Positions 15,550-30,924 are shown, numbered from the stretch's first letter. The stretch is 64,000 nt of DNA from a bacterium (GCA_023382385.1 JAHDVH010000002.1:136219-200218); one strand, 5' to 3'. Numbers and translations are program-made. Notes: generated by a model from the letters alone, not told the origin.

Positions 15550-15665
15550 CCAGAGACAGAAACTTCCTGAAAACAAGCAATTCCAGAGTTTGAGAAAGTG
15601 AGTAAATTGTGATAATTTGTGGTCATCAACTCTCTCTGACCCCTGCCACAACGCCTCCTCATAGA

Positions 15666-16727
15666 ATGTTGCGACTTACCCTCTTAACTCTTGTTTTTCT
15701 TGTGCCTCTGCTGGCCACAGCCGAGGATGAATTGCCCGCATGGCTTACAAAAACAAAGCTTTCCGGAGATTTTCGCTATCGCCACGAGGGAATCGACTTC
15801 GAAGGGGGTTCGGCAAGGTTCCGAAACCGTATTCGTTACCGCCTCGGTATCGAAACCATAGTAAATGAAAAAGTTAGAGTAGGTGCACGGTTCGCGAGCG
15901 GCACAGGCGACCCTCGTTCAACAAATCAGGACCTCGAGGACGGTTTCTCAGCAAAATCAATGAATTTGGATCGGGCATACTTTGAGTTGACACCCTCTGA
16001 CTCGTGGTGGGTCACTGCAGGCAAGTTCGGAAGCCCATTTGTTTACACCGATTTGCACTGGGATCCGGACGTAAATTTTGAGGGTGGAGCCGCCAAGTGG
16101 ATAAGTGGCGAAAACGTGAAACTCAGCGTAACCGGCGGTGCTCTATGGTTGGAACCGTACAAAGCGGAACACGGCAGTGGTATCTGGGTAGGACAGGTCT
16201 CAGCAGAAGGCAAACACGGATCGCAAGGGACATGGCTTGCAGCGGCGGGCCTTTACTCGTATGTCAATCGTGATATCTTGGCGGACTTGGGGGGATATGG
16301 GAACACTATCCTCCCAAACAATTCATTTCGTACAGATTTCGAGATTCTGGACGTTGTGCTTGGAGTAACGATGCCCGTAGGAAAGTCTAAGCTGACTGTA
16401 ACCGCCAATCCGGTGCTGAACACGGCAACATCCACGGATAATCTGGGCTGGATGGCCATGCTTAAGCTGAAAGGCAAGGTCTGGAAGCGCTCTTCATCCC
16501 TAACATATGACTATCGCCTGCTCGAGCCGGATGCGGTTTTTGGTGCGTTCACCGACAGCGATGCGGCTGGCGGAAGAACCGATCAACGCGGACACCGCAT
16601 TATGGCCGATTGGGAAATTCTGAAAGGTTTCACAGCCGGAGCAACTGCCTGCTTTAACACGCTGTCCGCTTCAGGCGATGGGGCTTGGTATCAGAGGTGG
16701 ATGGTCGACGGAGTAGTGAAGTTCTGA
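15666..16727 (+). CDS. outer-membrane beta-barrel porin, probably phosphate-selective (first gene of the pst locus)
   Basis: Signal peptide 'MLRLTLLTLVFLVPLLATA', alternating beta-strand pattern, C-terminal Phe ('VVKF'). Immediately upstream of pstS. Confidence 0.6.
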   Translation: MLRLTLLTLVFLVPLLATAEDELPAWLTKTKLSGDFRYRHEGIDFEGGSARFRNRIRYRLGIETIVNEKVRVGARFASGTGDPRSTNQDLEDGFSAKSMNLDRAYFELTPSDSWWVTAGKFGSPFVYTDLHWDPDVNFEGGAAKWISGENVKLSVTGGALWLEPYKAEHGSGIWVGQVSAEGKHGSQGTWLAAAGLYSYVNRDILADLGGYGNTILPNNSFRTDFEILDVVLGVTMPVGKSKLTVTANPVLNTATSTDNLGWMAMLKLKGKVWKRSSSLTYDYRLLEPDAVFGAFTDSDAAGGRTDQRGHRIMADWEILKGFTAGATACFNTLSASGDGAWYQRWMVDGVVKF

Positions 16728-16781
16728 GTTATGCTCACAGAACTCTAACAATCAATCGCTACTCTAACAATTCACCAAACA

Positions 16782-17660
16782 ATGGAGCAGAACATGTTTA
16801 CCTTTAGACGCAGTTTCATAGTAACGACAGGCTTAATCCTGCTTTTCGCCGTAGTCGGATGTGGCAAGAAGTCACAGGATGCCGCCTCAAAGACCTCGAT
16901 AGATATCAAGGGTTCTGACACGATGGTTAACCTGATGTCCGCGATGGCAGAGGGTTACATGAAAACACATCCGGGCAAGCAGGTTGCGGTAACGGGCGGA
17001 GGATCAGGAACCGGAATCGCGGCGCTGTTGAACGGCACGACAGATATCTGTGCATCTTCGCGCGAAATGTTGAGCAAAGAAATTGACCTTGCTAAACAGA
17101 AGGGTCTTGAACCACGCGAGTTTGTCATCGGGATGGACGGTTTAGCGGTGTTTGTTCACCCAAGTAATCCTGCTGATAGCCTGTCAATAGAGCAAATCAA
17201 GCAGATCTTCCAAGGTCAGATTACCGACTGGGCTCAAGTTGGCGGAAAGCCGGGGAGCATTGTTGTTCATTCACGCGAAAGCAATTCAGGCACGTACGTC
17301 TATTTCAAAGAGCACGTGCTAGGCAAGGGGGACTTTGCCAACTCGGCCCGTCTGATGACTTCGACGGCTGCGCTGGTGCAGGAGATTTCGACGAATACCG
17401 GTGCAATAGGTTACGGCGGAGAAGCGTATGGCCATGACAGCAAGGTAAAGATGCTGCATGTGCGTAAAGACGCCGAGTCTCCGGCAATCTTTCCGACTGA
17501 AGAGACCGTCCGTAATAAGGCGTATCCGATTGCCCGACCGCTGTTTCTATATACCAATGGCGAACCAAGCGGAGTGTTGCAGGAGTTCATCGAATTCTGT
17601 AACGGTCCGAGTGGACAGGCGATTGTGCGTGAAGTCGGCTACGTTCCACTGAAAGGATAG
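16782..17660 (+). CDS. pstS: phosphate ABC transporter substrate-binding protein PstS
   Basis: Lipobox 'VVGCG'; 'IKGSDTMVNL...VTGGGSGTGIAAL..GTTDI' matches the PstS family. Confidence 0.85.
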   Translation: MEQNMFTFRRSFIVTTGLILLFAVVGCGKKSQDAASKTSIDIKGSDTMVNLMSAMAEGYMKTHPGKQVAVTGGGSGTGIAALLNGTTDICASSREMLSKEIDLAKQKGLEPREFVIGMDGLAVFVHPSNPADSLSIEQIKQIFQGQITDWAQVGGKPGSIVVHSRESNSGTYVYFKEHVLGKGDFANSARLMTSTAALVQEISTNTGAIGYGGEAYGHDSKVKMLHVRKDAESPAIFPTEETVRNKAYPIARPLFLYTNGEPSGVLQEFIEFCNGPSGQAIVREVGYVPLKG

Positions 17661-17665
17661 CAACC

Positions 17666-18550
17666 TTGCCCGGACTGCCACGGCAGTATTGGAAAGCGCG
17701 GGCCATCCGCTACTTCTTCCAGATTTGTGCGGCGACATCTATTCTGATTGTCGTGCTCGTGTTCCTATTTCTCGGACGCGAGAGTCTGCCGTTCATCAGC
17801 AAATTCGGGATTGACGAACTCTTCAATCCGGTCTGGCAGCCCGTGTCCTTTGAAGATGAACAATTCGGGATTCTTCCACTCATCACAGGATCGCTGCTCG
17901 TCACATTCCTGGCGACGTTGTTTGCAGTTCCGTTTGGAGTTATTGCCGCAATCTATATCGCCGAGATGGCTTCCTCCGTGGAACGTGAAATCTGGAAACC
18001 TGTGATTGAGATGCTCGCGGGTATTCCGTCCGTCGTTCTCGGATTCTTCGGGCTGGTCGTCGTGGCACCGCTGGTCAAAGATGTCTTAGGTTTGGACTCC
18101 GGCCTGAATGCATTAACCGGCGCACTGCTCTTGGCCCTGATGGCGATTCCCACGATAATTACCATCTCAGAAGATGCGATACGCAACGTCCCGCAGTCTT
18201 ACAAGGAAGCCTCCTATTCACTCGGCGCATCCAAACTTCAGACTATCTGGAAGGTGACCGTGCCCGCCGCGCTTTCGGGAATCGTCGCGGCAGTCATGCT
18301 GGGAATCGGACGGGTCGTTGGCGAGACGATGGCGGTTATGATGGTTACCGGCAATGCTGCGATTCTCACACTCAGCCCGACACAGTCCGTGCGCACCATG
18401 ACGGCGACGGTGGCGGCAGAAATGGGCGAGGTGCCGTTCGGGAGCGACCACTATCACGCGCTGTTCGTAATCGGTGTCGTGCTGTTGCTGATGACGTTTT
18501 CGCTGAATATGATCGCTCAGCGCGTGCTTAAGAAATACCGGATCGGCTGA
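17666..18550 (+). CDS. pstC: phosphate ABC transporter permease PstC
   Basis: Multi-TM protein with ABC permease EAA-like loop 'EDAIRNVPQSYKEASYSLGASKLQT'. Confidence 0.9.
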   Translation: MPGLPRQYWKARAIRYFFQICAATSILIVVLVFLFLGRESLPFISKFGIDELFNPVWQPVSFEDEQFGILPLITGSLLVTFLATLFAVPFGVIAAIYIAEMASSVEREIWKPVIEMLAGIPSVVLGFFGLVVVAPLVKDVLGLDSGLNALTGALLLALMAIPTIITISEDAIRNVPQSYKEASYSLGASKLQTIWKVTVPAALSGIVAAVMLGIGRVVGETMAVMMVTGNAAILTLSPTQSVRTMTATVAAEMGEVPFGSDHYHALFVIGVVLLLMTFSLNMIAQRVLKKYRIG

Positions 18551-18555
18551 TCACC

Positions 18556-19416
18556 ATGAGCATGAAACCGCGCAATCTGACCGAACGCATCGTCTTTCAT
18601 TCGATGCTGGGTATTACGTATGCGATCCTGCTGGTCGTCGTGTATATCATTGCGGATGTGGTCGTCGGTGGTATCGGGACTATCTCGTGGGAGTTCCTGA
18701 CCGAAGCACCACGCAAGAGCGGCGAAGAGGGCGGCATCTGGCCGGTGATTGTCGGAACATTGTATCTGGTGATCGGGACGATAGCCTTTGCGCTGCCGCT
18801 TGGCATGGCTGGAGCGATATACCTCAGTGAGTATGCCAAGCAAGGACGATTGTCGCGCATGATCCGACTGTCTATCGTGACGTTAGCGGGTATTCCTTCG
18901 GTTGTTATTGGATTGTTTGGATTAGGCTTGTTTGTGATCTTTCTCGGGTTTGGCGCATCGATTCTTGCGGGCAGCATGACATTGGCCTGCATGATCCTCC
19001 CGACGATTATTGTCGCGAGTGAAGAAGCGCTGCGCTCCGTGCCGCAGTCGTTTCGTGAAGCGAGTCTCGCGCTGGGTGCGACTAAGTGGGAGACCATCCG
19101 CCGCAACGTTTTACCCTATGCGGTGCCGGGCATGATGACGGGGTCGATACTCGGTGTCGGCCGCGCCGCGGGGGAAACCGCACCGATTCTTTTGACTGTC
19201 GCGGCCTTCTTCCTCCCCACTCTTCCGCAGTCTGTGTTTGATCAGTGCATGGCCCTGCCCTATCACCTCTATATTCTGGCTACACAGCTTCCTGATATTG
19301 AGAAAGCCCGGCCCATGCAGTACGGCACGGCGCTTGTGCTGATTGCGGTCGTGCTCGGCTTCAATATGGCTGCAATCGTCATCCGATCCTACTTTCGTCG
19401 CAAGTATCGCTGGTAA
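18556..19416 (+). CDS. pstA: phosphate ABC transporter permease PstA
   Basis: '[25 protein letters not shown]' permease motif; sits in the canonical pstC-pstA-pstB order. Confidence 0.9.
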
Positions 19417-19418
19417 AA

Positions 19419-20183
19419 ATGTCCTCACAAGAATTCCATATTGTTGCTAAAGAGCTGAATTTTTATTACGGTTCTACGCAGGCGCTGTTTGATATCTCGA
19501 TTGAGCTCAAACGGAGCAAAGTCACCGCACTAATCGGCCCCTCCGGCTGCGGCAAGTCAACGTTCCTGCGCACGCTGAACCGGATGAATGATATCATTGA
19601 CGGGACGCGGCTGGAAGGCAAGATTCTGGTGGACGGGCTGGATATCTATACGGCATCCTCCAACGTGATTGACCTGCGGCGGAGAGTCGGGATGGTCTTT
19701 CAGAAGTCGAATCCCTTCCCCAAGTCCATTTACGAAAACGTCGCCTACGGCCCGCGCATTCACGGCGAGAAGAATCGCAGGACTCTTGATGACCTTGTGG
19801 AAGCGAGCCTGCGGCGGTCGGGGCTTTGGGAAGAGGTCAAGGACCGCCTTGCGGATAATGCGATGGGACTCTCGGGCGGCCAGCAACAGCGCCTTTGTAT
19901 TGCACGAGCACTTGCGGTGAATCCGGAAGTCCTGCTCATGGACGAGCCGGCTTCGGCACTGGACCCGCGCTCGACGGCGCGAATCGAAGACTTGATTGGA
20001 GAGCTGCGCGGCGATTACACAATTGTCATAGTGACTCATAACATGCAACAGGCCGCGCGCGTCTCGGATGACACCGCCTTTTTCTACGAAGGCCGCTTGA
20101 TCGAAGTCGGCCCGACAAAACAAATCTTCACGAACCCGAGTGAAAAGCAGACAGAAGACTACATTACCGGACGTTTCGGATAA
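19419..20183 (+). CDS. pstB: phosphate ABC transporter ATP-binding protein PstB
   Basis: Walker A 'GPSGCGKST', signature '[15 protein letters not shown]', Walker B '[11 protein letters not shown]'. Confidence 0.95.
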
Positions 20184-20261
20184 ACCGGACCTACTTGGCG
20201 CACGACGTATACGGGGCGCGGGAACGCCCTCTTTCTCTCACCTGACGGAAGGACCTCAATC

Positions 20262-20924
20262 ATGCCTGTACACCTGAGACGCGACCTTGACCGGCTGAAG
20301 CGCAAGATTCTGTCTTTTGGCGCCGCCGTGGAAGAGAACGCGCAGCTCGCGGTGACAGCCCTGCGGAATTTTGATCCGCAGCTTGCCCAGCGCGTCATCG
20401 AACGCGACGACCAGATTAATCAGGACGAAGTGGACATCGAGGACGAGTGTCTGAAAATCCTCGCGCTGCATCAGCCGGTTGCGATTGACCTACGCTACGT
20501 CATTACGGTCCTGAAAGTCAACAACGATTTGGAGCGCATCTCCGACTTCTCGGTCAACATCGCCAAGCGTGCGCGAACTTTGGCCAGACAGGAACCTGTG
20601 GCCCTGCCCAATGACCTGCTGGTTATCGCGCAGAAGTCTACGACCATGGTGAAGGCAGCGTTGGATGCGTTGGTCGAGCAGGATCCTGCTCGTGCGCGGC
20701 ACGTCTGTGCGTCGGATGACGAGGTGGACGACCTGCAGCGCAAACTGTACGACATCATCGTCCAGGAAATCCGCAATCATCCCGACCACGCCCCGCAATG
20801 GATGCAGGTCTTTTCGACCGTGCGCTATTTCGAGCGCATGGGTGACTTGGCCACGAACATCGCCGAAGACGTCATCTACTTGGTCGAGGGCGAAGTCATT
20901 CGGCATCGCGAGGCCGGAGCATAG
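20262..20924 (+). CDS. phoU: phosphate signalling/transport regulator PhoU
   Basis: Two PhoU repeats ('DQINQDEVDIEDECLKILALHQP', 'DLERISDFSVNIA', 'ERMGDLATNIAEDVIY'). Confidence 0.9.
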   Translation: MPVHLRRDLDRLKRKILSFGAAVEENAQLAVTALRNFDPQLAQRVIERDDQINQDEVDIEDECLKILALHQPVAIDLRYVITVLKVNNDLERISDFSVNIAKRARTLARQEPVALPNDLLVIAQKSTTMVKAALDALVEQDPARARHVCASDDEVDDLQRKLYDIIVQEIRNHPDHAPQWMQVFSTVRYFERMGDLATNIAEDVIYLVEGEVIRHREAGA

Positions 20925-21003: not shown

Positions 21004-24000
21004 TTAATTGCCACTGCAATCTGCAGTCACGACGTAGTAGCGATAGCCGTCGAAGCCTGCAGCGCCATCGTAGACAACCGAAGCACCGTTCAGAGCAGGC
21101 ACCGTGTCGTCGAGGATGAACTGCGGATCAAGACCGTCGTCCGGATTTCCATCGTTATTCGGGTTGGTCGAGTACCAGATCTTGTAGTTTGCATCCTGCG
21201 GGGCCGTGAAATGCAGTTGAATGAAGTTCGGGGCATTTCCGGCCGACACCACATACGCGCGGAGGTCGGTCACCGGCAGGCACGGGACCACAGTCACAGG
21301 ACAGGCCACTGTCGGCTGGCACGGAGTACCGTCATCAGACACCGTGAACGCGAACGTTCCCGTACCGCTGCCAAATGCCGTAATCAACAGCTTGTACTCA
21401 GCATTCGCGACCGAACAGAACGACAACTGCGAAGCCAGAGCCGGCGTGGTGCAGAAGTCGTCATCGTTCGCGACACACAGCAAGCTTTCGCAGGTCTCGC
21501 CGCAGAACACGCCGATTTCAGAGTCATAGATGGTCAGCGCGTCACACAGTGCTACCGTCATCGTATTGCCCGTGCCGATGATGTTGTACCAGACACCGCC
21601 GACCGTCGCACCGTACCACGTCGCACACGCGGGCAATCCGGTTTCGGCCGTATAGCCGACATTCGTACCGACATACGTCTGACCAAGCGCCGGGACTAAG
21701 ACAGCGCCGGCACAGGCATCGCTTCCTTGCAAAATCTGCGGGCAGGGATTGGCCTCACAGGTCAAGCCTGCGTCCCACAGTCCACCAAGTGCCGTGCACT
21801 CAATCTGCATCAGGTTCGCGCACGCATCACCGTTGTCATAGCAGCAGCGGCCCACCGGGCAGGGAGCGGCCTCGCAAGTTGTCGTGGATGTCCATTGACC
21901 GGAAAGAGCATTACACTCTAACTGGGTATTGGTCGCACACGCCCCGATACCGTTGTCGAGATAGCAGCAACGACCCACCGGGCAGGGGCTGGTTGCGCAG
22001 GAGGCAGCATCATTCCACTGACCACCGAGTGCGGAACATTCGGCAGCCATGTTGTCCGTACAAGCAGCTACTCCGTTAAGCAGATAGCAGCAGCGGCCCT
22101 CCGGTGCGCAATCAACATAGTTTACGCAAGGGACACTATCGCGGATGGCAAGTTCGTACGGGCCGCCCGTACCGGAGCCGTAGCCGTCCACCATGACGTA
22201 GTATTCTCGGCCAAGTTCTGAGCAGAACCACTCTACCGACCTTGTTGAACTGACAGTGCATCCTGCGGTAAACGCATCGTCATTACCGCCCACACAGGTG
22301 AAGTTCTGACAATCGCTACTACATGTAACAAGGAGTTGCGAATCGAACGTCGTGTAGGAATTACAAAGCGACACAACAATAATGTTCCCGGTTCCGACTA
22401 CCTTGTACCATTTGTCGGGAGCGGTGTTCGATCCCAGATAATCATCGCCGTTAAAATTGGACTCACAGTCAAAGTTCGGATCGTTGTCCGTGCCTCCCAC
22501 CAACGTGCCGCGGACAGTTGCCGGCACCGGCAGCAGTGGTGCTTCCGCGCAGGTATTGCCGCCGTCAATGAACAGCGGGCAGGGGCTGGCTTCGCAGGTC
22601 GTCGTGCCGTCCCAAACGCCGCCGAGGACAGAGCAGTCGTAGGCACCGTTGTTCGCACAGCTATTCCCGCCGTCATAACAGCAACGGCCGATGGCGGTGC
22701 ACGGCGAAGTGGTCAGCGTATAGGCATCGCAACCCGTCGAACGGTCCACCATGATGTAATAGGTTCCGGCTGCCAACGGCACACACGACAACGTCACGGT
22801 GTCCTGAGAGATGTTTGCAAACCGAATACAGTTAAAGCTGTCCGGCGGACAGGACGTCGAAACCACGAGACCGCGAGTCGTTGTGGTCGAGGCAATCAAC
22901 TGAATATTCCACGCACCGTTCGTCGACGTCGTCCAGCGATAGATATAATCCTCGCTGGCATCGGCGGTGCCCAAGCAGGTGTTGGCCCAGTCGTTGATTG
23001 CGCCGCACGTCGTGCCGGCATCCACAAAGGCATCGGCCTGCGCTTCATCGTAACAGTCGCGCACCTGCACGGTCACGCGAAGAGTGTCGTTGGTCCGGTC
23101 CTGATCCGTTGCCAAATCCGTGTACATCAAAAGTTCATAGTCGCCGACAGATGCCGGAGCAGTTTCGGTTCCGGCAAAGTCGTGATCTTCACTCTGATTC
23201 AAGGCGAGCACGGCCGTATTCTCCGAAACCACCGGACCGCCGTTAAAACGATACTTGACCGGAGCGGATTGCGCATTGTTTCCAATGTTGCGGAACTGAC
23301 CCACGATGTTCATCACTTGGCTCGGACTGACCCGCAGCGGACTCGGTGACACCACGCTCACGGTCCGGAAATCGTTGTTGTTGAACAACTGATAGAACCA
23401 CACCGCGCGGCCGTCCAGGTTGTTCGTGTAAGCGGAATCGGCTGCCGTGCTGCAATAGTAGTTCAGTTGGTCAAGTCCGGCGGCAGAAGTATTCTGAATA
23501 CCGATTGTCGGCGAAATTCCGTTCGCGCTCGTGCCGGAGATCTTCTGGATTTGACGATACTGCAGCTTGATCCTGCCGTCGTTCCAGAGTTGAAGCTGAT
23601 AGTCGAGCAAATCGGTGCCGTTAGTGCAGCACGTGCCGACCGAGTCCCACGTAATCGTTACGTGGTCGGCGTATTGCTGATAGACTACGCGGCCGCCATC
23701 TGAGCTGGCGCCGGTGCTGGTATTTCCGTCGTCGAAGTACGGCATAATCGCAGCGACCGTGATTCCCGATGCGGGGCAGCCGTTGGACCACGAAGTGTTG
23801 GAGGCAGAAAGGCCAAACACACCGTTGGTGGAGGCCCAACCGGATGTGTAATTGGTTCCGAAGAAGTTGAAGGTAAATCCAAACGGCACACTTGCGGACG
23901 CATCGTCCGAGCTGGAAATTGCCGTCAACTCGATCGGAGCGTTCGGCTCTTCCCATGCGTAGGTCGCGGTGTCACCGCCGAGATTGTCCACCCAGCGGTA

Positions 24001-24606
24001 GCCGTAGACGTTCGGTCCGCCCTGGGCGTCCAGCGGCGTACGACCGTCGCGCGATCCTTCGATCTCAGCCAGAAACTCGCTGGCCACCAGTTCTTCCTTT
24101 TCCGAAGGAGTAAGTTGCTCTCCGGTCTGCATCCTTGCATAGAGCGACGCATGGCGCGCTTCCGGACCGCTGCTCTGGCTGACCAATGCGATGTAAGCAG
24201 GATCGTCTTTGCCTTTCAACAACCCGCTTTGCAGCAATTCGAGCCGCTCACGGTCAGACAGGAGACTGCCGTCGTTGTGCCGCTCGAGCAGCCGCTCATA
24301 ATACGCGGGGTCGGTCGAAGCACGCTCCTGCTCTTCAGCCAAGGCCCGGAACTTGCCTTCGTCTGCGCCATTGCTGAAAGCCGGCGCGGCTTCGCCAAGC
24401 TCGGCCAGCTCGGCAACCACTGCGGCGCGCTTGGCGAGCAGTTCATCGTTGCTCACGTCTTGGATGAGCATCGCATCAATCTCAGCAAGCGCAGTGCGCG
24501 CAGCCTCAATGCGGGACATTTTTCTTGCCGACTCGGTAGCGGTCGCGAAATACGCCGCACCCAGCAGCACGCTGGACATCACAATCAAGGATAGCCACTT
24601 CTTCAT
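21004..24606 (-). CDS. giant secreted protein (paralog A): conserved ~215-aa N-proximal domain, PPC (pre-peptidase C-terminal)-like beta-sandwich domains and four ~38-aa six-Cys 'GRCCY' modules
   Basis: Signal peptide 'MKKWLSLIVMSSVLLGAAYF'. PPC-like 'YYIMVDRSTGCDAYTLTTS' and 'YYVMVDGYGSGTGGPYELAIRD'. Repeats such as 'GRCCYLDNGIGACATNTQLECNALSGQWTSTTTCEAAPCP'. Confidence 0.8.
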   Translation of the reverse strand: MKKWLSLIVMSSVLLGAAYFATATESARKMSRIEAARTALAEIDAMLIQDVSNDELLAKRAAVVAELAELGEAAPAFSNGADEGKFRALAEEQERASTDPAYYERLLERHNDGSLLSDRERLELLQSGLLKGKDDPAYIALVSQSSGPEARHASLYARMQTGEQLTPSEKEELVASEFLAEIEGSRDGRTPLDAQGGPNVYGYRWVDNLGGDTATYAWEEPNAPIELTAISSSDDASASVPFGFTFNFFGTNYTSGWASTNGVFGLSASNTSWSNGCPASGITVAAIMPYFDDGNTSTGASSDGGRVVYQQYADHVTITWDSVGTCCTNGTDLLDYQLQLWNDGRIKLQYRQIQKISGTSANGISPTIGIQNTSAAGLDQLNYYCSTAADSAYTNNLDGRAVWFYQLFNNNDFRTVSVVSPSPLRVSPSQVMNIVGQFRNIGNNAQSAPVKYRFNGGPVVSENTAVLALNQSEDHDFAGTETAPASVGDYELLMYTDLATDQDRTNDTLRVTVQVRDCYDEAQADAFVDAGTTCGAINDWANTCLGTADASEDYIYRWTTSTNGAWNIQLIASTTTTRGLVVSTSCPPDSFNCIRFANISQDTVTLSCVPLAAGTYYIMVDRSTGCDAYTLTTSPCTAIGRCCYDGGNSCANNGAYDCSVLGGVWDGTTTCEASPCPLFIDGGNTCAEAPLLPVPATVRGTLVGGTDNDPNFDCESNFNGDDYLGSNTAPDKWYKVVGTGNIIVVSLCNSYTTFDSQLLVTCSSDCQNFTCVGGNDDAFTAGCTVSSTRSVEWFCSELGREYYVMVDGYGSGTGGPYELAIRDSVPCVNYVDCAPEGRCCYLLNGVAACTDNMAAECSALGGQWNDAASCATSPCPVGRCCYLDNGIGACATNTQLECNALSGQWTSTTTCEAAPCPVGRCCYDNGDACANLMQIECTALGGLWDAGLTCEANPCPQILQGSDACAGAVLVPALGQTYVGTNVGYTAETGLPACATWYGATVGGVWYNIIGTGNTMTVALCDALTIYDSEIGVFCGETCESLLCVANDDDFCTTPALASQLSFCSVANAEYKLLITAFGSGTGTFAFTVSDDGTPCQPTVACPVTVVPCLPVTDLRAYVVSAGNAPNFIQLHFTAPQDANYKIWYSTNPNNDGNPDDGLDPQFILDDTVPALNGASVVYDGAAGFDGYRYYVVTADCSGN
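23385..24055. repeat. paralogous DNA block, copy 1 (411 bp 100% identical, ~470 bp >=99%) shared with 27566..28235
   Basis: Direct base-by-base comparison: 23624..24034 is identical to 27804..28214. The flanks fall to ~85-90% identity and then diverge. Confidence 0.9.
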
Positions 24607-24881
24607 ACAATCACCTCAGGCGGTTTGGGTTTTTGACCCGGGACGGAACAACAAAAAGGGTCTGATGGACAGACTGGAAATTTCAGGTAGCAGATCTTAG
24701 GCGGGACATTCTAATCTACAAATCTAATGCAAAACTTGCCGGATTACAAGAGCTTTGGCGGGGCCGCAAAATTTCTCTTCCCGTTTCAGGCCCGCACAAT
24801 GTTCAAGCGGCCCGCGCATAACTGCACGGGCCGCTTGAGTTTACATTTCAACGGCCATTTCTGACCGAGGTGTCGGAGAGG

Positions 24882-27800
24882 TTACTGTGTCACAGTCAGG
24901 ACAAAGTCACCCGTCTGGCCGCCGAAGCCGCTGACGCGGATGTAATACTGCGTGCCATTGGTGGGCGTCGCCACGGTTCCGATCGTGTACAAGCCGTTGA
25001 TTGGGCAAGCCGAATCGTCGATACAGAACACTTCGGTTCCGCCGCATGATCCGTCGTAGCAACCCATCTTCGTGTCGTAGTTTGTGCCGTTATCGCACAG
25101 CGACATCGTAATCGGATTCGTGGACGTTGACGTATAGACGTACCACACATCAGGCACCGTGAAGATGCAGGAGGTCGGCTCTGCGCTGAACGTCGCACCA
25201 ACGGTCGTTCCGGAAACCGGCGTGTTGTTAAACACTTGGATTGCGTTGGCACATTCGTCATTCGGTCCCGCCACAGGGCACGGATTGGCAGCGCACGTTT
25301 GGAACTCGTTCCAAACGCCACCGAGCGCGGTGCATTCCGTCTGGAAGTTATCCACACAGTTCAAACCGCCGTTGTAGCAGCAGCGGCCAGTCGGCAGCGG
25401 CGGCGGACACGGATTCACTGCGCAGCTCTGGAACGGTCCGCCCCAGGTGCCGCCGAGTTCGGCGCAATCAGCCTGAGTCAGGTCGTCGCAGTTGTTGTTG
25501 TTGTTGTAGCAGCAACGGCCAACCGGTTCAGTGAACGGCGTGCAACCGGCCGTCACGACGAAGTAACGGTAGTTGTCGAAGCCCGGCGAAGCCTGATAAA
25601 CCACCGGACCAGCCGTGACGCCCAACAGGACGGTTTCAATCACGAAGTTGGGATCAGATCCGTCGTCCGGATTTCCGTCGTTGTTCGGGTTGTTCGAGTA
25701 CCAGATGGTGTAGTCTTCATCCTGCGGAGCCGTGAAATACAGCTTGTAGTTGTTCGGCAGGTTGCCGGCGGATTCCACCAGAATCGTCAGGTCGGTCACC
25801 GGATCGCACGGAGCTTCCTGACACGGACCGAAGTCGTAGATTGTCACGTTGTAGACACCACTGTTGCCGCTGGAGTAGTGACCGGCACGGATGTAATATG
25901 TGCCCGGGTTGAACAGACCGGCAACCATCGAACCGAATCCGGCAACCGGACGGAACAACGGATCGAGCCACGGAATCAGGTCGAGATCGGGGTTGCATCC
26001 CCAGTCATCGTTGCAATAGAGCGCCGTGCCGCAACAGGCATTGCTGACCGACAGATGCGGGTCGCAGAACGTGCTGTTGTCACCGAGGATCGCAATCCTG
26101 CGGCACTCGGTCAGCGTGAAGTAGTAGAACTGATCCGGGCCGGTGGAGTTCGGGAAGCCCGGACAATCATCCGCGCAAGCCAGTCCAACACAGGTCGGCG
26201 TCGCTGACGGGTTGCCGGCGGCGGCAGAGGCGCTGCCCATCGGCGGCACGACCATCAAGGTCGCCGTCGCGCAGTCGTCGTTGGTCGGCGGCGGCGGCGG
26301 GCACGGGCTGCCTGCGCAGGTCAGACCCTGCGTCCAGTTGCCACCCAGGGCGGTACATTCGGTCAACGTGTTGTCAATACAGCTTGAGTTGTTGTCATAG
26401 CAGCAGCGTCCCTGCGGCTCGCCGGCCGGCGTGCAGGTCAGCGTCAGCTTATAAAGCGACGGCGTCGGCAGACCAGTAAAGTTCCCATACGAACCGAACG
26501 CGACATAGCTTCCCGGTGCGAGCTGCAGCGCCGAAACGGACTGCGGTCCGGCTGCGCAGCTGGTAATGAAGGCGTTCGTGATGAAGAATGCCGAAGCGCA
26601 AGGATCGTGATCCACAATACCGAAGAGCAGGTTATCGAAGGACGACTGAGCCGTCAAGGTCACATCGCTGAACTCGGTAATCGTGAACAGGAACCAGTCC
26701 GTGTCACGGTAGCCGGTCGCATCACAGGTAAACGTCTGGGCACAGACCGTCTGACCGCACGCGATAGCGCCATAGAGCGGAGTCGCGAGGTTGCAACCGC
26801 CGTTGATGTCGCTCGTACCATTGGTGGCGCAGTAGTTCGGGAAGTCATCGGGTTCAATGACGTCATTTCCACCGCACGTCAGCGCGCAGAGATTCACGCA
26901 CGGCTCCGCCGCGCAGGACGTGCCGGCAGTCCAGACTCCGTTCAAGGCTGAGCAAGCCGCCGGAGAGTTGTCTGCGCATGCGGCACCATTGTTGTAGCAG
27001 CAGCGGCCGATTTCCGGAGTCGAGATGGACAGCGTGTACAGACCACTGCTTCCGCCGTAACCGTCTACCACGAAGTAGTACGTGTTGCCGGCAACAAGGT
27101 TAAGTCCCAGCAGCTGCGAAACAAATGGACTGGCATAGTTAGGTGCCGTGCAAGCGTCGTCGTTGCAGGCAAACGGAGTTCCCGGAGTTACCGCGTTCTC
27201 GTAAACATACATCTTGGTGTCATAGGCCGTCTGGCCTCCGCACAGCGTCGCATCGACCACCTGATTCGCACCCGGAGTATAGGCATACACCACATCCGGC
27301 GAGGTCGAACCGGTGAAGGGACAAACTTCGTCGTAGTTGTTCGTGAAGCCGACCGTCGTGCCGTTAGCCGAGTAAGGCAGCGAGGGGATGACAAAAGCAT
27401 TGCAGACGAGATCGCCAGCCACTGCTGTCGGGCACGGCGTTGCACAGGTGATATCAGCGGTAAATGTCCCGCCGAGTGCGGCACAATCAGTGATAAAGAC
27501 ACCGTCTACACAATTCGGTGCGCACGGGTTGGGGCCGTAGCAGCAGCGACCAGGAGTTGCTCCTCCCAAATAGAACCACACGGCGCGGCCGTCGAGGTTG
27601 TTCGTATAGGCCGTATCACCAGCCGTGTTACAATAGTAGTTCAGCTGGTCAAGTCCGGCGACAGAAGTATTCTGAATCCCGATCGTCGGCGAACTGCCGT
27701 TGGAACTCGTGCCGGTGATTCTCTGGATTTGACGATACTGCAGCTTGATCTTGCCGTTGTTCCAGATTTGAAGCTGATAGTCGAGCAAGTCGGTGCCGTT

Positions 27801-28661
27801 GGTGCAGCACGTGCCGACCGAGTCCCACGTAATCGTTACGTGGTCGGCGTATTGCTGATAGACTACGCGGCCGCCATCTGAGCTGGCGCCGGTGCTGGTA
27901 TTTCCGTCGTCGAAGTACGGCATAATCGCAGCGACCGTGATTCCCGATGCGGGGCAGCCGTTGGACCACGAAGTGTTGGAGGCAGAAAGGCCAAACACAC
28001 CGTTGGTGGAGGCCCAACCGGATGTGTAATTGGTTCCGAAGAAGTTGAAGGTAAATCCAAACGGCACACTTGCGGACGCATCGTCCGAGCTGGAAATTGC
28101 CGTCAACTCGATCGGAGCGTTCGGCTCTTCCCATGCGTAGGTCGCGGTGTCACCGCCGAGATTGTCCACCCAGCGGTAGCCGTAGACGTTCGGGCCGCCC
28201 TGGGCGTCCAGCGGGTTGCTTTCACGGCCGTTGGGGAACAGCATCGCTTCGAGGCGCTCGAACTCCGCCTTCTCAGTCGGCGTCAGTTGATAACCATCAT
28301 TCAGACGGTCGAGCAACGCGTGATACTGCACCTTTTCGGGCGCCACACCCAGCTCTTCCGCAGTTGCGGGAGCGACGTAGCCGGCCGGAGCTTCAGCAGA
28401 AACCGAAGGTCCGTCCATGCGCTGAACCTGCGCCGGAGCCTTGACCTCATTCATGCTGCTCAAAGATTGAATCTTTGCGTCAATTTCGTCAAAGCGCCCT
28501 TGCTGGGCGAGTTCTCGCTTGGCCTGAGCCAGTGATCTCTGTGCCTGCGGACTCAAACGCTTCGCGCTGTCGCTTTGGGTCGCGTAAGAATAGAACGCGA
28601 GCGAGCCACAACACAATAGCACGGCACACACATACCATAGCCATTTCTTGTTCATCTTCAC
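24882..28661 (-). CDS. giant secreted protein (paralog B) with the same architecture: at least six GRCCY six-Cys modules plus PPC-like domains
   Basis: Signal peptide 'MKMNKKWLWYVCAVLLCCGSLAF'. The N-proximal domain is ~95% identical to paralog A. 'GRCCYDNNSSCIDNTLTECTALGGNWTQGLTCAGSPCP' and related modules; C-terminal PPC-like 'YYIRVSGFGGQTGDFVLTVTQ'. Confidence 0.8.
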   Translation of the reverse strand: MKMNKKWLWYVCAVLLCCGSLAFYSYATQSDSAKRLSPQAQRSLAQAKRELAQQGRFDEIDAKIQSLSSMNEVKAPAQVQRMDGPSVSAEAPAGYVAPATAEELGVAPEKVQYHALLDRLNDGYQLTPTEKAEFERLEAMLFPNGRESNPLDAQGGPNVYGYRWVDNLGGDTATYAWEEPNAPIELTAISSSDDASASVPFGFTFNFFGTNYTSGWASTNGVFGLSASNTSWSNGCPASGITVAAIMPYFDDGNTSTGASSDGGRVVYQQYADHVTITWDSVGTCCTNGTDLLDYQLQIWNNGKIKLQYRQIQRITGTSSNGSSPTIGIQNTSVAGLDQLNYYCNTAGDTAYTNNLDGRAVWFYLGGATPGRCCYGPNPCAPNCVDGVFITDCAALGGTFTADITCATPCPTAVAGDLVCNAFVIPSLPYSANGTTVGFTNNYDEVCPFTGSTSPDVVYAYTPGANQVVDATLCGGQTAYDTKMYVYENAVTPGTPFACNDDACTAPNYASPFVSQLLGLNLVAGNTYYFVVDGYGGSSGLYTLSISTPEIGRCCYNNGAACADNSPAACSALNGVWTAGTSCAAEPCVNLCALTCGGNDVIEPDDFPNYCATNGTSDINGGCNLATPLYGAIACGQTVCAQTFTCDATGYRDTDWFLFTITEFSDVTLTAQSSFDNLLFGIVDHDPCASAFFITNAFITSCAAGPQSVSALQLAPGSYVAFGSYGNFTGLPTPSLYKLTLTCTPAGEPQGRCCYDNNSSCIDNTLTECTALGGNWTQGLTCAGSPCPPPPPTNDDCATATLMVVPPMGSASAAAGNPSATPTCVGLACADDCPGFPNSTGPDQFYYFTLTECRRIAILGDNSTFCDPHLSVSNACCGTALYCNDDWGCNPDLDLIPWLDPLFRPVAGFGSMVAGLFNPGTYYIRAGHYSSGNSGVYNVTIYDFGPCQEAPCDPVTDLTILVESAGNLPNNYKLYFTAPQDEDYTIWYSNNPNNDGNPDDGSDPNFVIETVLLGVTAGPVVYQASPGFDNYRYFVVTAGCTPFTEPVGRCCYNNNNNCDDLTQADCAELGGTWGGPFQSCAVNPCPPPLPTGRCCYNGGLNCVDNFQTECTALGGVWNEFQTCAANPCPVAGPNDECANAIQVFNNTPVSGTTVGATFSAEPTSCIFTVPDVWYVYTSTSTNPITMSLCDNGTNYDTKMGCYDGSCGGTEVFCIDDSACPINGLYTIGTVATPTNGTQYYIRVSGFGGQTGDFVLTVTQ
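27566..28235. repeat. paralogous DNA block, copy 2 (partner of 23385..24055)
   Basis: See copy 1. Identical spurious antisense ORFs (23621..23956 and 27649..28134) confirm the identity. Confidence 0.9.
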
Positions 28662-28739
28662 TCCTTCATGTTTTGGGGGGTCAGATGTCTTAACCCCGTC
28701 TACGGATGGACAAAACCTGCACGCCTGACGGCGAACCGT

Positions 28740-28960
28740 CAGTACCCTTTACAATATCAAATATAATTGCCAGCAAAATAGGATGTCAACAGGAGATTGG
28801 TTGAAATGACACAATTCTCTCTTTTGCATCTACTATTACAAACTCTTAAAATTCAATCAGATAAATTGAAAGTCATGTTGATTTAATTCTCGGTAAAAAT
28901 CTTAACTTTCGCTATTCTATCTATTTATTATACTTGACCCATTCATTCAACAATCTGCGT
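28740..28960. promoter_or_regulatory. ~220-bp AT-rich (~30% GC) non-coding island upstream of paralog B
   Basis: Strong compositional contrast with the ~60% GC surroundings. It lies between the start of the 24882..28661 gene and the terminus of the signalling cassette. Confidence 0.5.
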
Positions 28961-29062: not shown

Positions 29063-29488
29063 TCAGACGTGCGCCGCACTCCGCAAGGCCTGAAAATACG
29101 ATTTCGTGAACAGGCTCAGATCGTTGCCGGCAGGCGAGAAATCCTTGTACAGAATCGCGCTTGCGCCAAGCGATTTGAGTTCGTCCGACACGGACGGTTG
29201 ATCAAAGATCGGCAATCCTGTCACCACCACCACGCCCGCACGCACATTGTCTTCCAGCAGTTTCATCAGCACGCTGCGCCCGCTCATGCGCGGCATTTCG
29301 AGATCGAGGGACACGACGTCCGGCTTCACGGTCTTGACAGCTTCGAGACACTCGTCTCCGTCCGCCACCGACCCTGCAAACTCGAACCCTTCCTCGCGCT
29401 CCACCAGCGCCTGCAACACCCTGCGCACAACCGGATTGTCATCGGCAATCAAAACTCTCACGTTGCGTCCCCCTTTTGGAACGGACAT
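29063..29488 (-). CDS. single-domain CheY-like response regulator receiver protein
   Basis: 'VRVLIADDNPVVRRVL' ... 'PDVVSLDLEMPRMSG' ... 'VVVVTG' (Asp pocket, phospho-acceptor D, T/K motifs). Confidence 0.8.
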   Translation of the reverse strand: MSVPKGGRNVRVLIADDNPVVRRVLQALVEREEGFEFAGSVADGDECLEAVKTVKPDVVSLDLEMPRMSGRSVLMKLLEDNVRAGVVVVTGLPIFDQPSVSDELKSLGASAILYKDFSPAGNDLSLFTKSYFQALRSAAHV

Positions 29489-29494
29489 TTACAA

Positions 29495-30442
29495 TTACTC
29501 CGCAGTTGCCATCTTGATAAACTCACGGGCACGGTCAATATTTTCTTCGATGTCGGTGACAAACGCCGGGATGTCGAGCGACAGGATTGCGGGATTCTCC
29601 TGCGCCACAACTTCCCACGCGGGGTCCTGCGCCAGATGGGCGTTCACACGTTCGCGCAGACTCTTGCTCAGAATAGCACGCGCCAAACTGGACGCCAGAT
29701 GCACGATTGCCGTCAGGACGCTGTGTTCCGGTGCCAGATGCGGCTGATGATGGTAGCGGATGCTTTCCACAATGGAATTCGGCAGCGACCACTTTTCAGC
29801 CAGCCACGCGCCGACTTCCGCATGGTCCGTGCCGAGCACCTTCTGCTCCGCGACGATTGAGGGAAGTCCCTCCTGCTCCGCGATTTTGAAAGCCTGCCCC
29901 AACTCATTGGGGAAGTATTGATGCAGGACAATTTTACCGATGTTATGCAGCAGTCCGGACGTGAACTCGATACCGTGCAGTCGCATTTGCAGCTTCGAGG
30001 CCAGCACGCGCGCGATTTCACCCGTGCCCGCGCTATGTTCCCAGAATGTCTCGCGCGAAAAAGCCGTGCCGCCGTCCAGCACGGGGAAAGCCTTGAACAC
30101 CGAAATCGATGTCACCAGATTTGAGACTTCGCGCATCCCCAGCACGACAAGCGCCATGTTCAGCGATTCGACTCGCCGCGGCATGCCGTAGAACGCGCTG
30201 TTCGAAACGCGCAGGATTTTGCTCGTCATGGACGGATCGTTGCGAATGATCCGCACGATTTCCGACATCCCCGCCAGCGGATCGTTCGCGAGCCGCGAGA
30301 CTTCCATCGCCAGCAGCGGCAGCGTCGGCAAGTCATGCGCATCCCGCAGCCGCTGCATCACAAATTTGCTCCGCGCGGAGTCTCCTGTGATCAGGTCATC
30401 TGCCGTCGGGACGGAAACGAAACTATGCGAAGAGTGATTCAT
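29495..30442 (-). CDS. HDOD-domain signalling protein
   Basis: 'LPTLPLLAMEVSRLANDP...EIVRIIRNDPSMTSKILRVSNSAFYG...LGTDHAEVGAWLAEKWSLP' matches the HDOD (HD-related output domain) pattern. Start set at the internal ATG 30442 (MNHSSH). Confidence 0.8.
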   Translation of the reverse strand: MNHSSHSFVSVPTADDLITGDSARSKFVMQRLRDAHDLPTLPLLAMEVSRLANDPLAGMSEIVRIIRNDPSMTSKILRVSNSAFYGMPRRVESLNMALVVLGMREVSNLVTSISVFKAFPVLDGGTAFSRETFWEHSAGTGEIARVLASKLQMRLHGIEFTSGLLHNIGKIVLHQYFPNELGQAFKIAEQEGLPSIVAEQKVLGTDHAEVGAWLAEKWSLPNSIVESIRYHHQPHLAPEHSVLTAIVHLASSLARAILSKSLRERVNAHLAQDPAWEVVAQENPAILSLDIPAFVTDIEENIDRAREFIKMATAE

Positions 30443-30459
30443 GAAATCTCCAATAATGA

Positions 30460-30924
30460 TCATACATCGAGAGATGTATTTAACTTGTCCAGGTTCAGCC
30501 AGAATACGTCGCCGTAGCGCGTGACGGTGCGCGCGCGGACGGGCAGCGGGGCGACAGACAGCTCCTGATGCAGCCACGCGCGCGGATGAACCGGGATCAC
30601 TTCATCGGCGTGATCAAACGCCAACCCAAGCGGACCGTCCACCGTGTCCACCAGTGCGATAGTCGCAGAGCCGTTACGGTGTGAATTTTCTGTTCCGATG
30701 ACATGACGCATGTCAAGCACCGGCACTCGACCGAACGCCAGTTGAACTTCTCCGGAATAGTCCGGATTCGACGTGGGAATCAGGGGTAATCCTACGAACA
30801 GACCGCGCACTTCGTCCACGGTCAGGCCAACCCGCCAGCCACCTAAGCGGAAGCACACGAGTTTTGTGGGGGGTGCGGCGGGCGCGGCTGCGGGCCGCCG
30901 GCGAATGGGAGGTGCTGAGACCAT
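30460..30924 (-). CDS. CheW-like adaptor domain protein
   Basis: 'LVCFRLGGWRVGLTVDEVRGL' is a CheW-like core; the N-terminus is Pro/Ala-rich. Confidence 0.7.
   Translation of the reverse strand: MVSAPPIRRRPAAAPAAPPTKLVCFRLGGWRVGLTVDEVRGLFVGLPLIPTSNPDYSGEVQLAFGRVPVLDMRHVIGTENSHRNGSATIALVDTVDGPLGLAFDHADEVIPVHPRAWLHQELSVAPLPVRARTVTRYGDVFWLNLDKLNTSLDV

What the first reader, a model, noticed from the sequence alone, without database searches (positions are those of the whole stretch)
21004..28661. Tandem pair of ~1200-aa secreted proteins built from an unrecognised 6-Cys 'GRCCY' module plus PPC domains
Both genes (minus strand, head-to-tail) encode a signal peptide, a coiled-coil-like segment and a highly conserved ~215-aa domain ('GGPNVYGYRWVDNLGGDTATYAWEEPN...GTCCTNGTDLLDYQLQ...'). 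This is followed by alternating PPC-like beta-sandwich domains and repeated ~38-aa modules of the form [P/E]xGRCCYx5Cx7-8Cx2LGGxWx5-7CxxxPCP. There are four copies in paralog A and at least six in paralog B, two of them tandem. I do not recognise this module as a named domain. Six conserved cysteines suggest three disulfides in an extracellular ligand-binding or adhesion repeat. Neither protein has a T9SS CTD, so they would leave the cell by another route.
Basis: seen in the sequence. Interest (0 to 1): 0.7.

Follow-up and report, generated by a model that had tools for sequence, protein, structure and literature searches.

The report
Secreted proteins with unnamed six-cysteine repeat
Two neighbouring genes of an uncultured bacterium encode large exported proteins built from beta-sandwich domains separated by a small six-cysteine module. 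The module has no name in the domain libraries searched, yet it occurs in more than a thousand other bacterial protein families, so this is a useful annotation gap rather than a new kind of biology.

Summary
Two intact minus-strand genes, A (21004-24606, 1200 aa) and B (24882-28655/28661, 1257/1259 aa), share a near-identical ~215-aa domain and carry a 39-42-aa module, P-x-G-R-C-C-Y...C...C-x2-L-G-G-x-W...C...P-C.

Copy numbers need correcting. A has four copies (one single, three tandem). B has five, not six or more. The total is nine.

No Pfam-A, NCBIfam or PDB sequence matches the module. A profile of it finds 1392 protein clusters, with up to 31 copies per protein. GRCCY is therefore a subtype of a widespread unannotated G-[AR]-C-C-[FYL] six-Cys repeat. 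Named examples come from Phycisphaerae and Calditrichota, and partner domains are all extracellular.

The 215-aa domain is a remote NIDO (nidogen-like) relative. The tandem pair and its flanking genes are conserved in related genomes and evolve under purifying selection (dN/dS about 0.17). A 392-nt identical tract shows gene conversion from B into A.

Best reading: Sec-exported, non-enzymatic binding or matrix proteins in which the module is a disulfide-stapled spacer. The function itself is inferred.

The parts
21004..24606 (-). Gene A, 1200 aa (identical to NCBI 'hypothetical protein KJZ99_04935 [bacterium]'). GAGGTG Shine-Dalgarno-like sequence 5 nt before the ATG.
24882..28661 (-). Gene B, maximal ORF 1259 aa. 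The probable start is ATG 28655 (1257 aa), preceded by AAGGAG.
24538..24606 (-). A aa 1-23: putative Sec signal peptide (MKK, hydrophobic core, ATA|TE). Unusually well conserved across the family.
   Evidence: read from the sequences; no predictor run
24040..24537 (-). A aa 24-189: Ala/Glu/Leu-rich linker with the repeated motif Y-x2-LL-x-R-x3-G-x2-L-[ST]-x2-E-[KR]-x2-L. No family match.
   Evidence: helical or coiled-coil character not tested
23392..24039 (-). A aa 190-405: NIDO-like all-beta domain. 23624-24015 is 100% identical in DNA to B 27802-28193.
23056..23382 (-). A aa 409-517: Ig-like, probably CARDB-like domain.
   Evidence: no Pfam hit above threshold; family profile against PDB: best hit 2l0d_A, 'Cell surface protein', E 0.025
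22702..23055 (-). A aa 518-635: Cys-containing beta-sandwich 1 (PPC-like, sub-threshold).
22579..22695 (-). A module 1 (aa 638-676).
22111..22569 (-). A aa 680-832: beta-sandwich 2, homologous to B aa 414-548.
21742..22104 (-). A modules 2-4 in tandem (aa 835-875, 876-916, 917-955).
21322..21735 (-). A aa 958-1095: beta-sandwich 3, homologous to B's last domain.
21016..21282 (-). A aa 1109-1197: 89-aa Cys-bracketed C-terminal domain (C-x-P-V-x-D-L...NPNNDGNPDDG...YYVVTADC). Family unassigned.
27570..28217 (-). B aa 149-364: NIDO-like domain.
27432..27557 (-). B module 1 (aa 369-410; variant with two extra Cys).
27018..27422 (-). B aa 414-548: beta-sandwich 1.
26898..27014 (-). B module 2 (aa 550-588).
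26427..26894 (-). B aa 590-745: beta-sandwich 2. The equivalent domain of the more distant B-type relative P0019 passes the PPC cut-off.
26301..26417 (-). B module 3 (aa 749-787).
25821..26285 (-). B aa 793-947: beta-sandwich 3 (GBD_T9SS_assoc-like, 20.2 bits against a cut-off of 27).
25542..25808 (-). B aa 952-1040: the same 89-aa Cys-bracketed domain, here internal.
25278..25526 (-). B modules 4-5 in tandem (aa 1046-1085, 1090-1128).
24885..25262 (-). B aa 1134-1259: C-terminal beta-sandwich 4 (GBD_T9SS_assoc 24.4 bits, PPC 20.8 bits; both sub-threshold).
28760..28789 (-). Promoter-like site TTGACA-18-TATATT (11 of 12 matches), about 100 nt upstream of B.
   Evidence: consensus match only
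24803..24838 (-). Very stable GC-rich hairpin between B and A (-36.3 kcal/mol for 24795-24850, z -7.7) with no U-tract. Possible terminator or RNA-stability element.

Best explanation
A and B are real, expressed-type genes for Sec-exported, very acidic, Cys-rich (58 and 73 Cys), non-enzymatic multidomain proteins of the cell envelope or exterior. The host is an uncultured bacterium that uses T9SS.

Layout of each protein:
1. Signal peptide.
2. Ala/Glu/Leu-rich stalk.
3. A distal NIDO-like beta domain.
4. A chain of PPC/GBD-like beta-sandwich domains, plus a CARDB-like Ig domain in A and an 89-aa Cys-bracketed domain in both.

The 39-42-aa G-R-C-C-Y module is an independently folding mini-domain: a beta-hairpin, a short helix and a third strand. 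It is most likely stapled by three disulfides formed in the periplasm after Sec export. It belongs to a large, so far unannotated G-[AR]-C-C-[FYL] six-Cys repeat family used in secreted proteins of Planctomycetota (Phycisphaerae), Calditrichota and related uncultured lineages.

Inferred role of the module: a rigid, protease-resistant spacer between the binding domains. Single copies separate the sandwiches and tandem copies extend the reach, in the way EGF or Sushi modules work in animal matrix proteins. The proteins as a whole would then act as adhesin, matrix or substrate-capture proteins.

The locus evolves by domain-cassette exchange and gene conversion between the two paralogues.

Shown: gene reality, architecture, module family membership and spread, high-confidence fold, remote NIDO relationship, synteny, gene conversion.
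Inferred: disulfide formation, final location, spacer role, binding function.
For: - Intact ORFs with ribosome-binding sites.
- Conserved synteny CheW-HDOD-RR-[B-like]-[A-like]-PhoU-PstBAC in GCA_964269295.1 and in Logan assemblies.
- dN/dS 0.17 (B) and 0.16 (A C-terminal part) against a strain whose flanks are 98% identical.
- Nine module copies with independent E-values of 1e-10 to 1e-18.
- The 39-position profile finds 1392 clusters at E<=1e-3, 400 at <=1e-10, with up to 31 copies per protein.
- In 1365 instances, five of the six Cys columns are occupied in essentially every instance. The sixth is scored in 83%, probably because its spacing varies.
- AF2 gives pLDDT 97.2 for a single module.
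- No Pfam, NCBIfam or PDB sequence match to the module, even in proteins with many copies.
- Co-occurring domains in 51 other module proteins are all extracellular: GBD_T9SS_assoc, Por_Secre_tail, GEVED, Laminin_G_3, P_proprotein, PPC, Peptidase_S8, dockerin. A homologue, P0020, carries a T9SS CTD.
- No catalytic domain was detected in A or B.
- NIDO link: the A2 profile hits 243 proteins, several of which pass the NIDO cut-off.
- Gene conversion: 392-nt exact identity between A and B. A's middle 2.1 kb is not collinear with the 98%-identical sister strain.
- Acidic composition: D+E 137 against K+R 55 in A, 115 against 40 in B.
Against: - No direct evidence for expression, location or binding.
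- The signal peptide was judged by eye. Its unusual conservation could mean an uncleaved signal anchor.
- There is no known outer-membrane translocation signal, so the proteins may stay periplasmic.
- The spacer role rests on analogy. A conserved aromatic residue after LGG and arrays of up to 31 copies elsewhere could equally indicate that the module itself binds something.
The only hint is four instances that lack Cys2 and Cys6 together.
- PPC/GBD assignments of the sandwiches are sub-threshold in the window proteins.
Confidence: 0.5

Rival explanations
1. The six-Cys module is itself the functional binding unit, for example a small lectin-like or mineral- or protein-binding knot that gains avidity through repetition. 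The beta-sandwiches would then be the scaffold.
For: Besides Cys and Gly, an aromatic residue (W/Y/F after L-G-G-x) is conserved. Other proteins consist almost entirely of the repeat, with 20-31 copies, as avidity-based binders do.
Against: The invariant positions are those expected of a structural core (6 Cys, 2-3 Gly, 1 aromatic), and the surface positions vary freely. In A and B most copies sit singly between larger domains, like linkers.
Confidence: 0.25
2. The proteins are not released or surface-exposed. They would stay in the periplasm or be tethered to the inner membrane by an uncleaved N-terminal signal anchor, acting as an envelope scaffold.
For: There is no T9SS CTD, although other proteins in the same window carry one. 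The N-terminal hydrophobic segment is more conserved than typical cleaved signals: 20 of 25 residues match between A and P0007, against 50% identity overall.
Against: Relatives with the same N-terminal domain carry T9SS CTDs, dockerins or PEP-CTERM signals, which points to an extracellular life. Plausible AXA cleavage sites are present.
Confidence: 0.15
3. The cysteines coordinate metal (Zn or Fe-S) rather than forming disulfides, making these metal-binding or redox proteins.
For: Cys density is high (4.8-5.8%).
Against: - Sec-type export signal.
- No CxxC or His motifs.
- The spacing and the CC doublet are typical of disulfide knots.
- Compact high-confidence fold without cofactor.
- Exclusively extracellular partner domains.
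Confidence: 0.05
4. The genes are decaying or are artefacts of assembly or annotation.
For: Repeats and a 392-nt identical tract could in principle cause mis-assembly.
Against: Independent assemblies reproduce the locus. The frames are uninterrupted over 1200 and 1259 codons. dN/dS is about 0.17. Identity decays gradually on either side of the identical tract.
Confidence: 0.02

Closest known systems
Unnamed G-[AR]-C-C-[FYL] six-Cys repeat of Phycisphaerae, Calditrichota and uncultured-bacterium 'hypothetical proteins' (e.g. MBX3396098.1, MCO6439236.1, MCB9357778.1)
   Same: Same profile and same six Cys columns. Same length (about 37-46 aa). The GRCCY and GACC subtypes occur together in one protein (P0023). 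Same alternation with PPC/GBD-like sandwiches.
   Different: A and B use only the G-R-C-C-Y subtype, which makes up about 20% of instances, and combine it with an N-terminal NIDO-like domain.
NIDO (nidogen-like) domain, Pfam PF06119
   Same: The profile of the 215-aa domain retrieves bacterial proteins that pass the NIDO gathering score (27-42 bits against 25). The motifs F-P-F-Y-G...S-T-N-G and W-D-D resemble NIDO hallmarks; that resemblance is from my own recollection of the model. The context is extracellular.
   Different: The window domains themselves give no Pfam hit. In relatives the match covers only model positions 2-57 of 186. No solved structure was available for comparison.
PPC (PF04151) and GBD_T9SS_assoc (PF23759) beta-sandwich domains
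   Same: The intervening domains give weak hits to both. B-type family members (P0017, P0019) and the Phycisphaerae protein P0023 pass the cut-offs.
   Different: The hits are sub-threshold in A and B, and several sandwiches have no hit at all. The domains carry extra Cys pairs.
Eukaryotic six-Cys spacer modules (EGF-like, Sushi, LDL-A)
   Same: About 40 aa, six Cys, tandem or interspersed use in large extracellular proteins. This analogy underlies the spacer hypothesis and comes from established knowledge, not from a test here.
   Different: No sequence match to any Pfam Cys-rich family at E<=10, apart from a spurious Ornatin hit (16.9 bits against a cut-off of 25). The CC doublet and the hairpin-helix-strand topology differ.
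iRhom homology domain (IRHD) of iRhom1/2 (PDB 8snl_B, 9xy4_A)

Membership tests
Unnamed G-x-C-C six-Cys repeat family (defined here by profile A1) | Significant match of each copy to the 39-position profile | tested here: met
   Nine copies, independent E-values 1.7e-10 to 2.5e-18. These copies helped build the profile, so the independent support is the 1392 outside hits.
Unnamed G-x-C-C six-Cys repeat family (defined here by profile A1) | Six conserved Cys: a CC doublet plus four single Cys at fixed spacing | tested here: met
   All nine window copies have them. In 1365 outside instances the Cys columns are occupied in about 100% (83% for the last, where spacing varies).
Unnamed G-x-C-C six-Cys repeat family (defined here by profile A1) | Independent compact fold | tested here: met
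   AF2 on one module with 55 aligned copies: pLDDT 97.2, strands 3-9 and 12-18, helix 20-25, strand 29-31. This is a prediction only.
Unnamed G-x-C-C six-Cys repeat family (defined here by profile A1) | Three intramodule disulfides | not testable with these tools
   Model coordinates are not returned. The only hint is the joint loss of Cys2 and Cys6 in four instances.
Pfam PPC (PF04151) | Score at or above the gathering cut-off of 25.9 bits | tested here: not met
   A whole protein 14.8 bits; A aa 518-640 16.6 bits; B aa 1132-1259 20.8 bits. B-type family members P0017 (26.4) and P0019 (37.9) pass, so remote homology is likely.
Pfam GBD_T9SS_assoc (PF23759) | Score at or above the gathering cut-off of 27 bits | tested here: not met
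   B aa 790-950 20.2 bits; B aa 1132-1259 24.4 bits. P0017 (27.9), P0019 (28.6) and P0023 (49.2) pass.
Pfam NIDO (PF06119) | Direct match of the window domain at or above 25 bits | tested here: not met
   No hit at E<=10 for A aa 190-408. P0020's copy scores 13.3 bits.
Pfam NIDO (PF06119) | Transitive homology through intermediate sequences | tested here: inconclusive
   The A2 profile hits P0170 (E 1e-55), P0177, P0192, P0204, P0235 and P0252. These pass NIDO at 27-42 bits, but over model positions 2-57 of 186 only.
T9SS cargo (type A CTD PF18962/TIGR04183; type B PF13585) | C-terminal sorting domain | tested here: not met
   No hit on the C-terminal segments at E<=10. Positive controls lie in the same window: 63-3782 and 44760-46817.
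CARDB (PF07705) | Pfam match, or a relative among solved CARDB structures | tested here: inconclusive
   No Pfam hit. The family profile A5 against PDB gives 2l0d_A 'Cell surface protein' as best hit, E 0.025, covering positions 8-98 of 102.
Known Cys-rich modules in Pfam (EGF, LDL-A, EB, granulin, antistasin/ornatin, Myxococcus Cys-rich repeat and others) | Any HMM match at or above its gathering score | tested here: not met
   The only hit is Ornatin at 16.9 bits against 25. Nothing was found in proteins with 14, 23 or 31 copies or in 51 further proteins.
iRhom homology domain | Significant structural or sequence similarity | tested here: inconclusive
Sec (SPase I) secreted protein | n-h-c signal peptide with an AXA site | not tested
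   Judged by eye from the sequences; no predictor was available.

The most novel reading that the evidence does not exclude
The bacterial six-Cys module would be the prokaryotic counterpart of a sub-structure of the eukaryotic iRhom homology domain. The authors of the ADAM17/iRhom2 structure described that fold as having no known relative (PMC11248996). If so, this widespread bacterial repeat family would give the IRHD its first structural relatives and a possible evolutionary origin.

A more modest but still new reading: the repeat is an undescribed domain superfamily with a new small disulfide fold.
Probability: 0.07. Interest if true: 0.75.

Novelty: new variant of a known kind. Interest (0 to 1): 0.4.

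Why it matters
- At least 1392 protein clusters at 50% identity carry a repeat that the libraries searched here (Pfam-A, NCBIfam) do not model. Many are very large 'hypothetical proteins' from Planctomycetota, Calditrichota and unclassified wastewater or marine bacteria. Naming and modelling the repeat would improve annotation of the secreted proteomes of these poorly known phyla.
- The module is small and folds with very high predicted confidence, so it may be useful as a disulfide-stabilised scaffold.
- The locus is a clear example of tandem surface-protein paralogues that are remodelled by gene conversion and domain-cassette exchange between strains 98% identical in their flanks.
- None of this overturns current understanding. 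It fills a gap.

Tried and rejected
- The search for homologous proteins with the 39-position module alignment returned nothing (12 candidates). The word index does not suit such a short, variable profile. The exhaustive representative search did the job instead.
- The search for related loci in genome contigs with protein A found no relative. With the N-domain alignment it found 12 loci, but their titles are placeholders ('uncultured Alphaproteobacteria bacterium', 'MAG: bacterium'), so the phylum of the window stays unresolved.
- An exact look-up of protein A in the contig index failed.
- Foldseek against AFDB50 was unavailable, so the NIDO and module folds could not be compared with predicted structures.
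- Literature searches for 'GRCCY', for Cys-rich repeats in Planctomycetes and for bacterial NIDO domains found nothing relevant.
- Considered and rejected: EGF, LDL-A, EB or granulin identity (no HMM match); T9SS cargo (no CTD); lipoprotein (no lipobox, with Cys preceded by L or C rather than G/A/S); pseudogene or artefact.


Full report
**Observation.** The window holds two long minus-strand ORFs in tandem: A (21004-24606, 1200 aa) and B (24882-28661, 1259 aa). B's GTG at 28661 lies inside a perfect AAGGAG that sits six bases before ATG 28655. The near-identical orthologue P0014 begins at that ATG, so B is probably 1257 aa. A has a GAGGTG five bases before its ATG. A regular-expression scan and a profile scan both find the G-R-C-C-Y module four times in A (aa 638, 835, 876, 917; the last three in tandem) and five times in B (aa 369, 550, 749, 1046, 1090; the last two in tandem). 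Per-copy independent E-values are 1.7e-10 to 2.5e-18, and no other ORF of the 64-kb window matches. The total is nine copies. The ~215-aa domain (A 190-405, B 149-364) is about 95% identical between the paralogues.

**Are the genes real?** Protein A is identical to an NCBI MAG protein, 'hypothetical protein KJZ99_04935 [bacterium]', on a 2.9-Mb contig. Only 22 full-length relatives were found among 5.8 billion clusters, all from uncultured bacteria. The locus is conserved. In GCA_964269295.1 and in several Logan assemblies the order is CheW, HDOD, response regulator, B-like gene, A-like gene, then convergent PhoU-PstB-PstA-PstC-PstS, exactly as in the window. Against a strain whose flanks are 98.2-98.3% identical in DNA, dN/dS is 0.17 for B and 0.16 for the C-terminal 370 codons of A. 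PhoU and PstB show no non-synonymous changes at all. The genes are therefore functional but evolve faster than their housekeeping neighbours.

**The module.** An alignment of 55 distinct copies from the family has nine invariant columns: G3, C5, C6, Y7, C15, C23, G28, C36 and C41. Nothing at or above gathering score was found in Pfam-A or NCBIfam, neither on the window proteins nor on the isolated tandem triple at E<=10. The only hit was a spurious Ornatin match, 16.9 bits against a cut-off of 25. A profile search of PDB sequences was also negative.

The exhaustive profile search of 1.84 billion cluster representatives found 1392 proteins at E<=1e-3, 400 at <=1e-10 and 62 at <=1e-30, with up to 31 copies in one protein. 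In the best 147 proteins, 931 near-complete instances were classified. G-A-C-C-[FLY] is the commonest form and G-R-C-C-Y makes up about a fifth. With relaxed thresholds, 1365 instances show five of the six Cys columns occupied in essentially every case and the last column in 83%, where its spacing varies. Both subtypes occur within one Phycisphaerae protein, P0023. The named examples are 'hypothetical proteins' of Phycisphaerae and Calditrichota, or 'proprotein convertase P-domain-containing protein [bacterium]'.

Proteins with 14, 23 or 31 copies, and 51 further module proteins, still give no Pfam or NCBIfam match over the repeat. Their other domains are all extracellular: GBD_T9SS_assoc, Por_Secre_tail, GEVED, DUF5818, Laminin_G_3, P_proprotein, PPC, Peptidase_S8, dockerin and SdrD_B. 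However, it is a subtype of a large, unannotated repeat family rather than a peculiarity of these genes.

The domains between modules are homologous to one another and give sub-threshold PPC and GBD_T9SS_assoc hits. The B-type family members P0017 and P0019 pass both cut-offs. A also has an Ig-type domain whose family profile best matches 2l0d_A at E 0.025; I recall that entry as a CARDB-domain structure, which is memory rather than a test. An 89-aa Cys-bracketed domain with an N-P-N-N-D-G-N-P-D-D-G loop is C-terminal in A and internal in B, and has no Pfam or PDB relative. No catalytic domain was found.

**Secretion.** The window encodes clear T9SS cargo. Por_Secre_tail domains are present in 63-3782 and 44760-46817. 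The window also holds a C25 gingipain-like peptidase with a sub-threshold FlgD_ig-like hit at its C-terminus (20.6 bits against 27). A distant homologue, P0020, has a T9SS CTD. A and B have none. They have plausible Sec signals, judged by eye. With 58 and 73 Cys they would fold oxidatively in the periplasm. How, or whether, they cross the outer membrane is unknown.

**Evolution of the pair.** A and B share a 392-nt stretch of perfect DNA identity (A 23624-24015 and B 27802-28193), flanked by decaying identity. In the sister strain (L002), whose flanks are 98% identical, the A-position gene (P0003, 1432 aa) has a different N-domain type and an extra CARDB-plus-sandwich unit. The window's A N-domain instead matches the B-type domain (92.6% identity to L002's B). 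Another variant, P0002, lacks one tandem module. The locus is therefore remodelled by gene conversion and cassette gain or loss, which is typical of exposed surface proteins.

**Mechanism.** The best-supported reading is that these are exported, non-enzymatic binding or matrix proteins. Disulfide-stapled mini-domains would act as rigid spacers between beta-sandwich binding domains, with a NIDO-like head. I give this about 0.5. The structural statements are well supported, but the functional ones are inferred from architecture and from partner domains. The rivals are that the module is itself the binder (0.25), that the proteins are retained in the periplasm or inner membrane (0.15), that the Cys bind metal (0.05), and that the genes are artefacts or decaying (0.02).

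**Verdict.** The novelty lies in an unmodelled but widespread small domain family and in a tidy case of paralogue gene conversion, not in a new kind of system. Interest is 0.4.

Noticed in passing
window 23624-24015 and 27802-28193 (minus strand): A 392-nt stretch is exactly identical between genes A and B, inside the NIDO-like domain, with identity decaying on both sides. This indicates recent gene conversion between the tandem paralogues.
   Followed up: yes
window 22122-24224, compared with L002 12432-15230: A sister strain whose flanks are 98% identical carries a 1432-aa gene at the A position (P0003). It has a different N-domain type and an extra CARDB-plus-sandwich unit. The middle of gene A is a swapped cassette.
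   Followed up: partly
window 24803-24838 (minus strand): A very stable GC-rich hairpin lies 45 nt after B's stop codon (-36.3 kcal/mol, z -7.7 against shuffles). It has no U-tract. It could be a terminator, a processing site or an RNA-stability element between B and A.
   Followed up: partly
window 28655-28666: AAGGAG followed by ATG 28655 suggests that B starts two codons downstream of the GTG that opens the maximal ORF.
   Followed up: yes
window 63-3782 (+), 44760-46817 (+), 58865-63970 (-): Three large secreted-type proteins. One combines Kre9/Big_7 Ig domains with Por_Secre_tail. One is an S8 subtilase with Por_Secre_tail. One is a 1701-aa C25 (gingipain-like) peptidase with sub-threshold CARDB (21.5 bits against 22.7) and FlgD_ig-like C-terminal (20.6 against 27) hits. 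The first two show that the genome uses T9SS.
   Followed up: partly
window 15609-20924 (+) and 29063-30924 (-): A pstSCAB-phoU phosphate-transport cluster lies convergent to gene A, and a CheW-HDOD-response regulator cluster lies upstream of B. Both neighbourhoods are conserved with the tandem pair in a genome only about 50% identical in protein A (L001).
   Followed up: partly
window 21016-21282 and 25542-25808 (minus strand): An 89-aa domain bracketed by Cys at both ends, with an invariant acidic loop N-P-N-N-D-G-N-P-D-D-G that looks like a calcium-binding loop. It has no Pfam or PDB relative. It is C-terminal in A-type proteins and internal in B-type proteins.
   Followed up: partly
A aa 100-180 (window ~24067-24309); B aa 110-140: A conserved helical motif, Y-x2-LL-x-R-x3-G-x2-L-[ST]-x2-E-[KR]-x2-L, lies just before the NIDO-like domain and is repeated twice in A. 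A similar leader, together with a 'KKxW...LLCC' N-terminus, appears in the Phycisphaerae protein P0023.
   Followed up: no
window 24719-24726 (minus strand): TAGATTTG, about 113 nt upstream of A's ATG, fits the Bacteroidota-type -7 promoter motif TAnnTTTG (my own knowledge of that motif). It could easily be a chance match.
   Followed up: no
window 12342-13784 (-): A single ORF combines ThiS, ThiF and rhodanese domains, a fused sulfur-carrier and activating-enzyme arrangement.
   Followed up: no
   Followed up: partly
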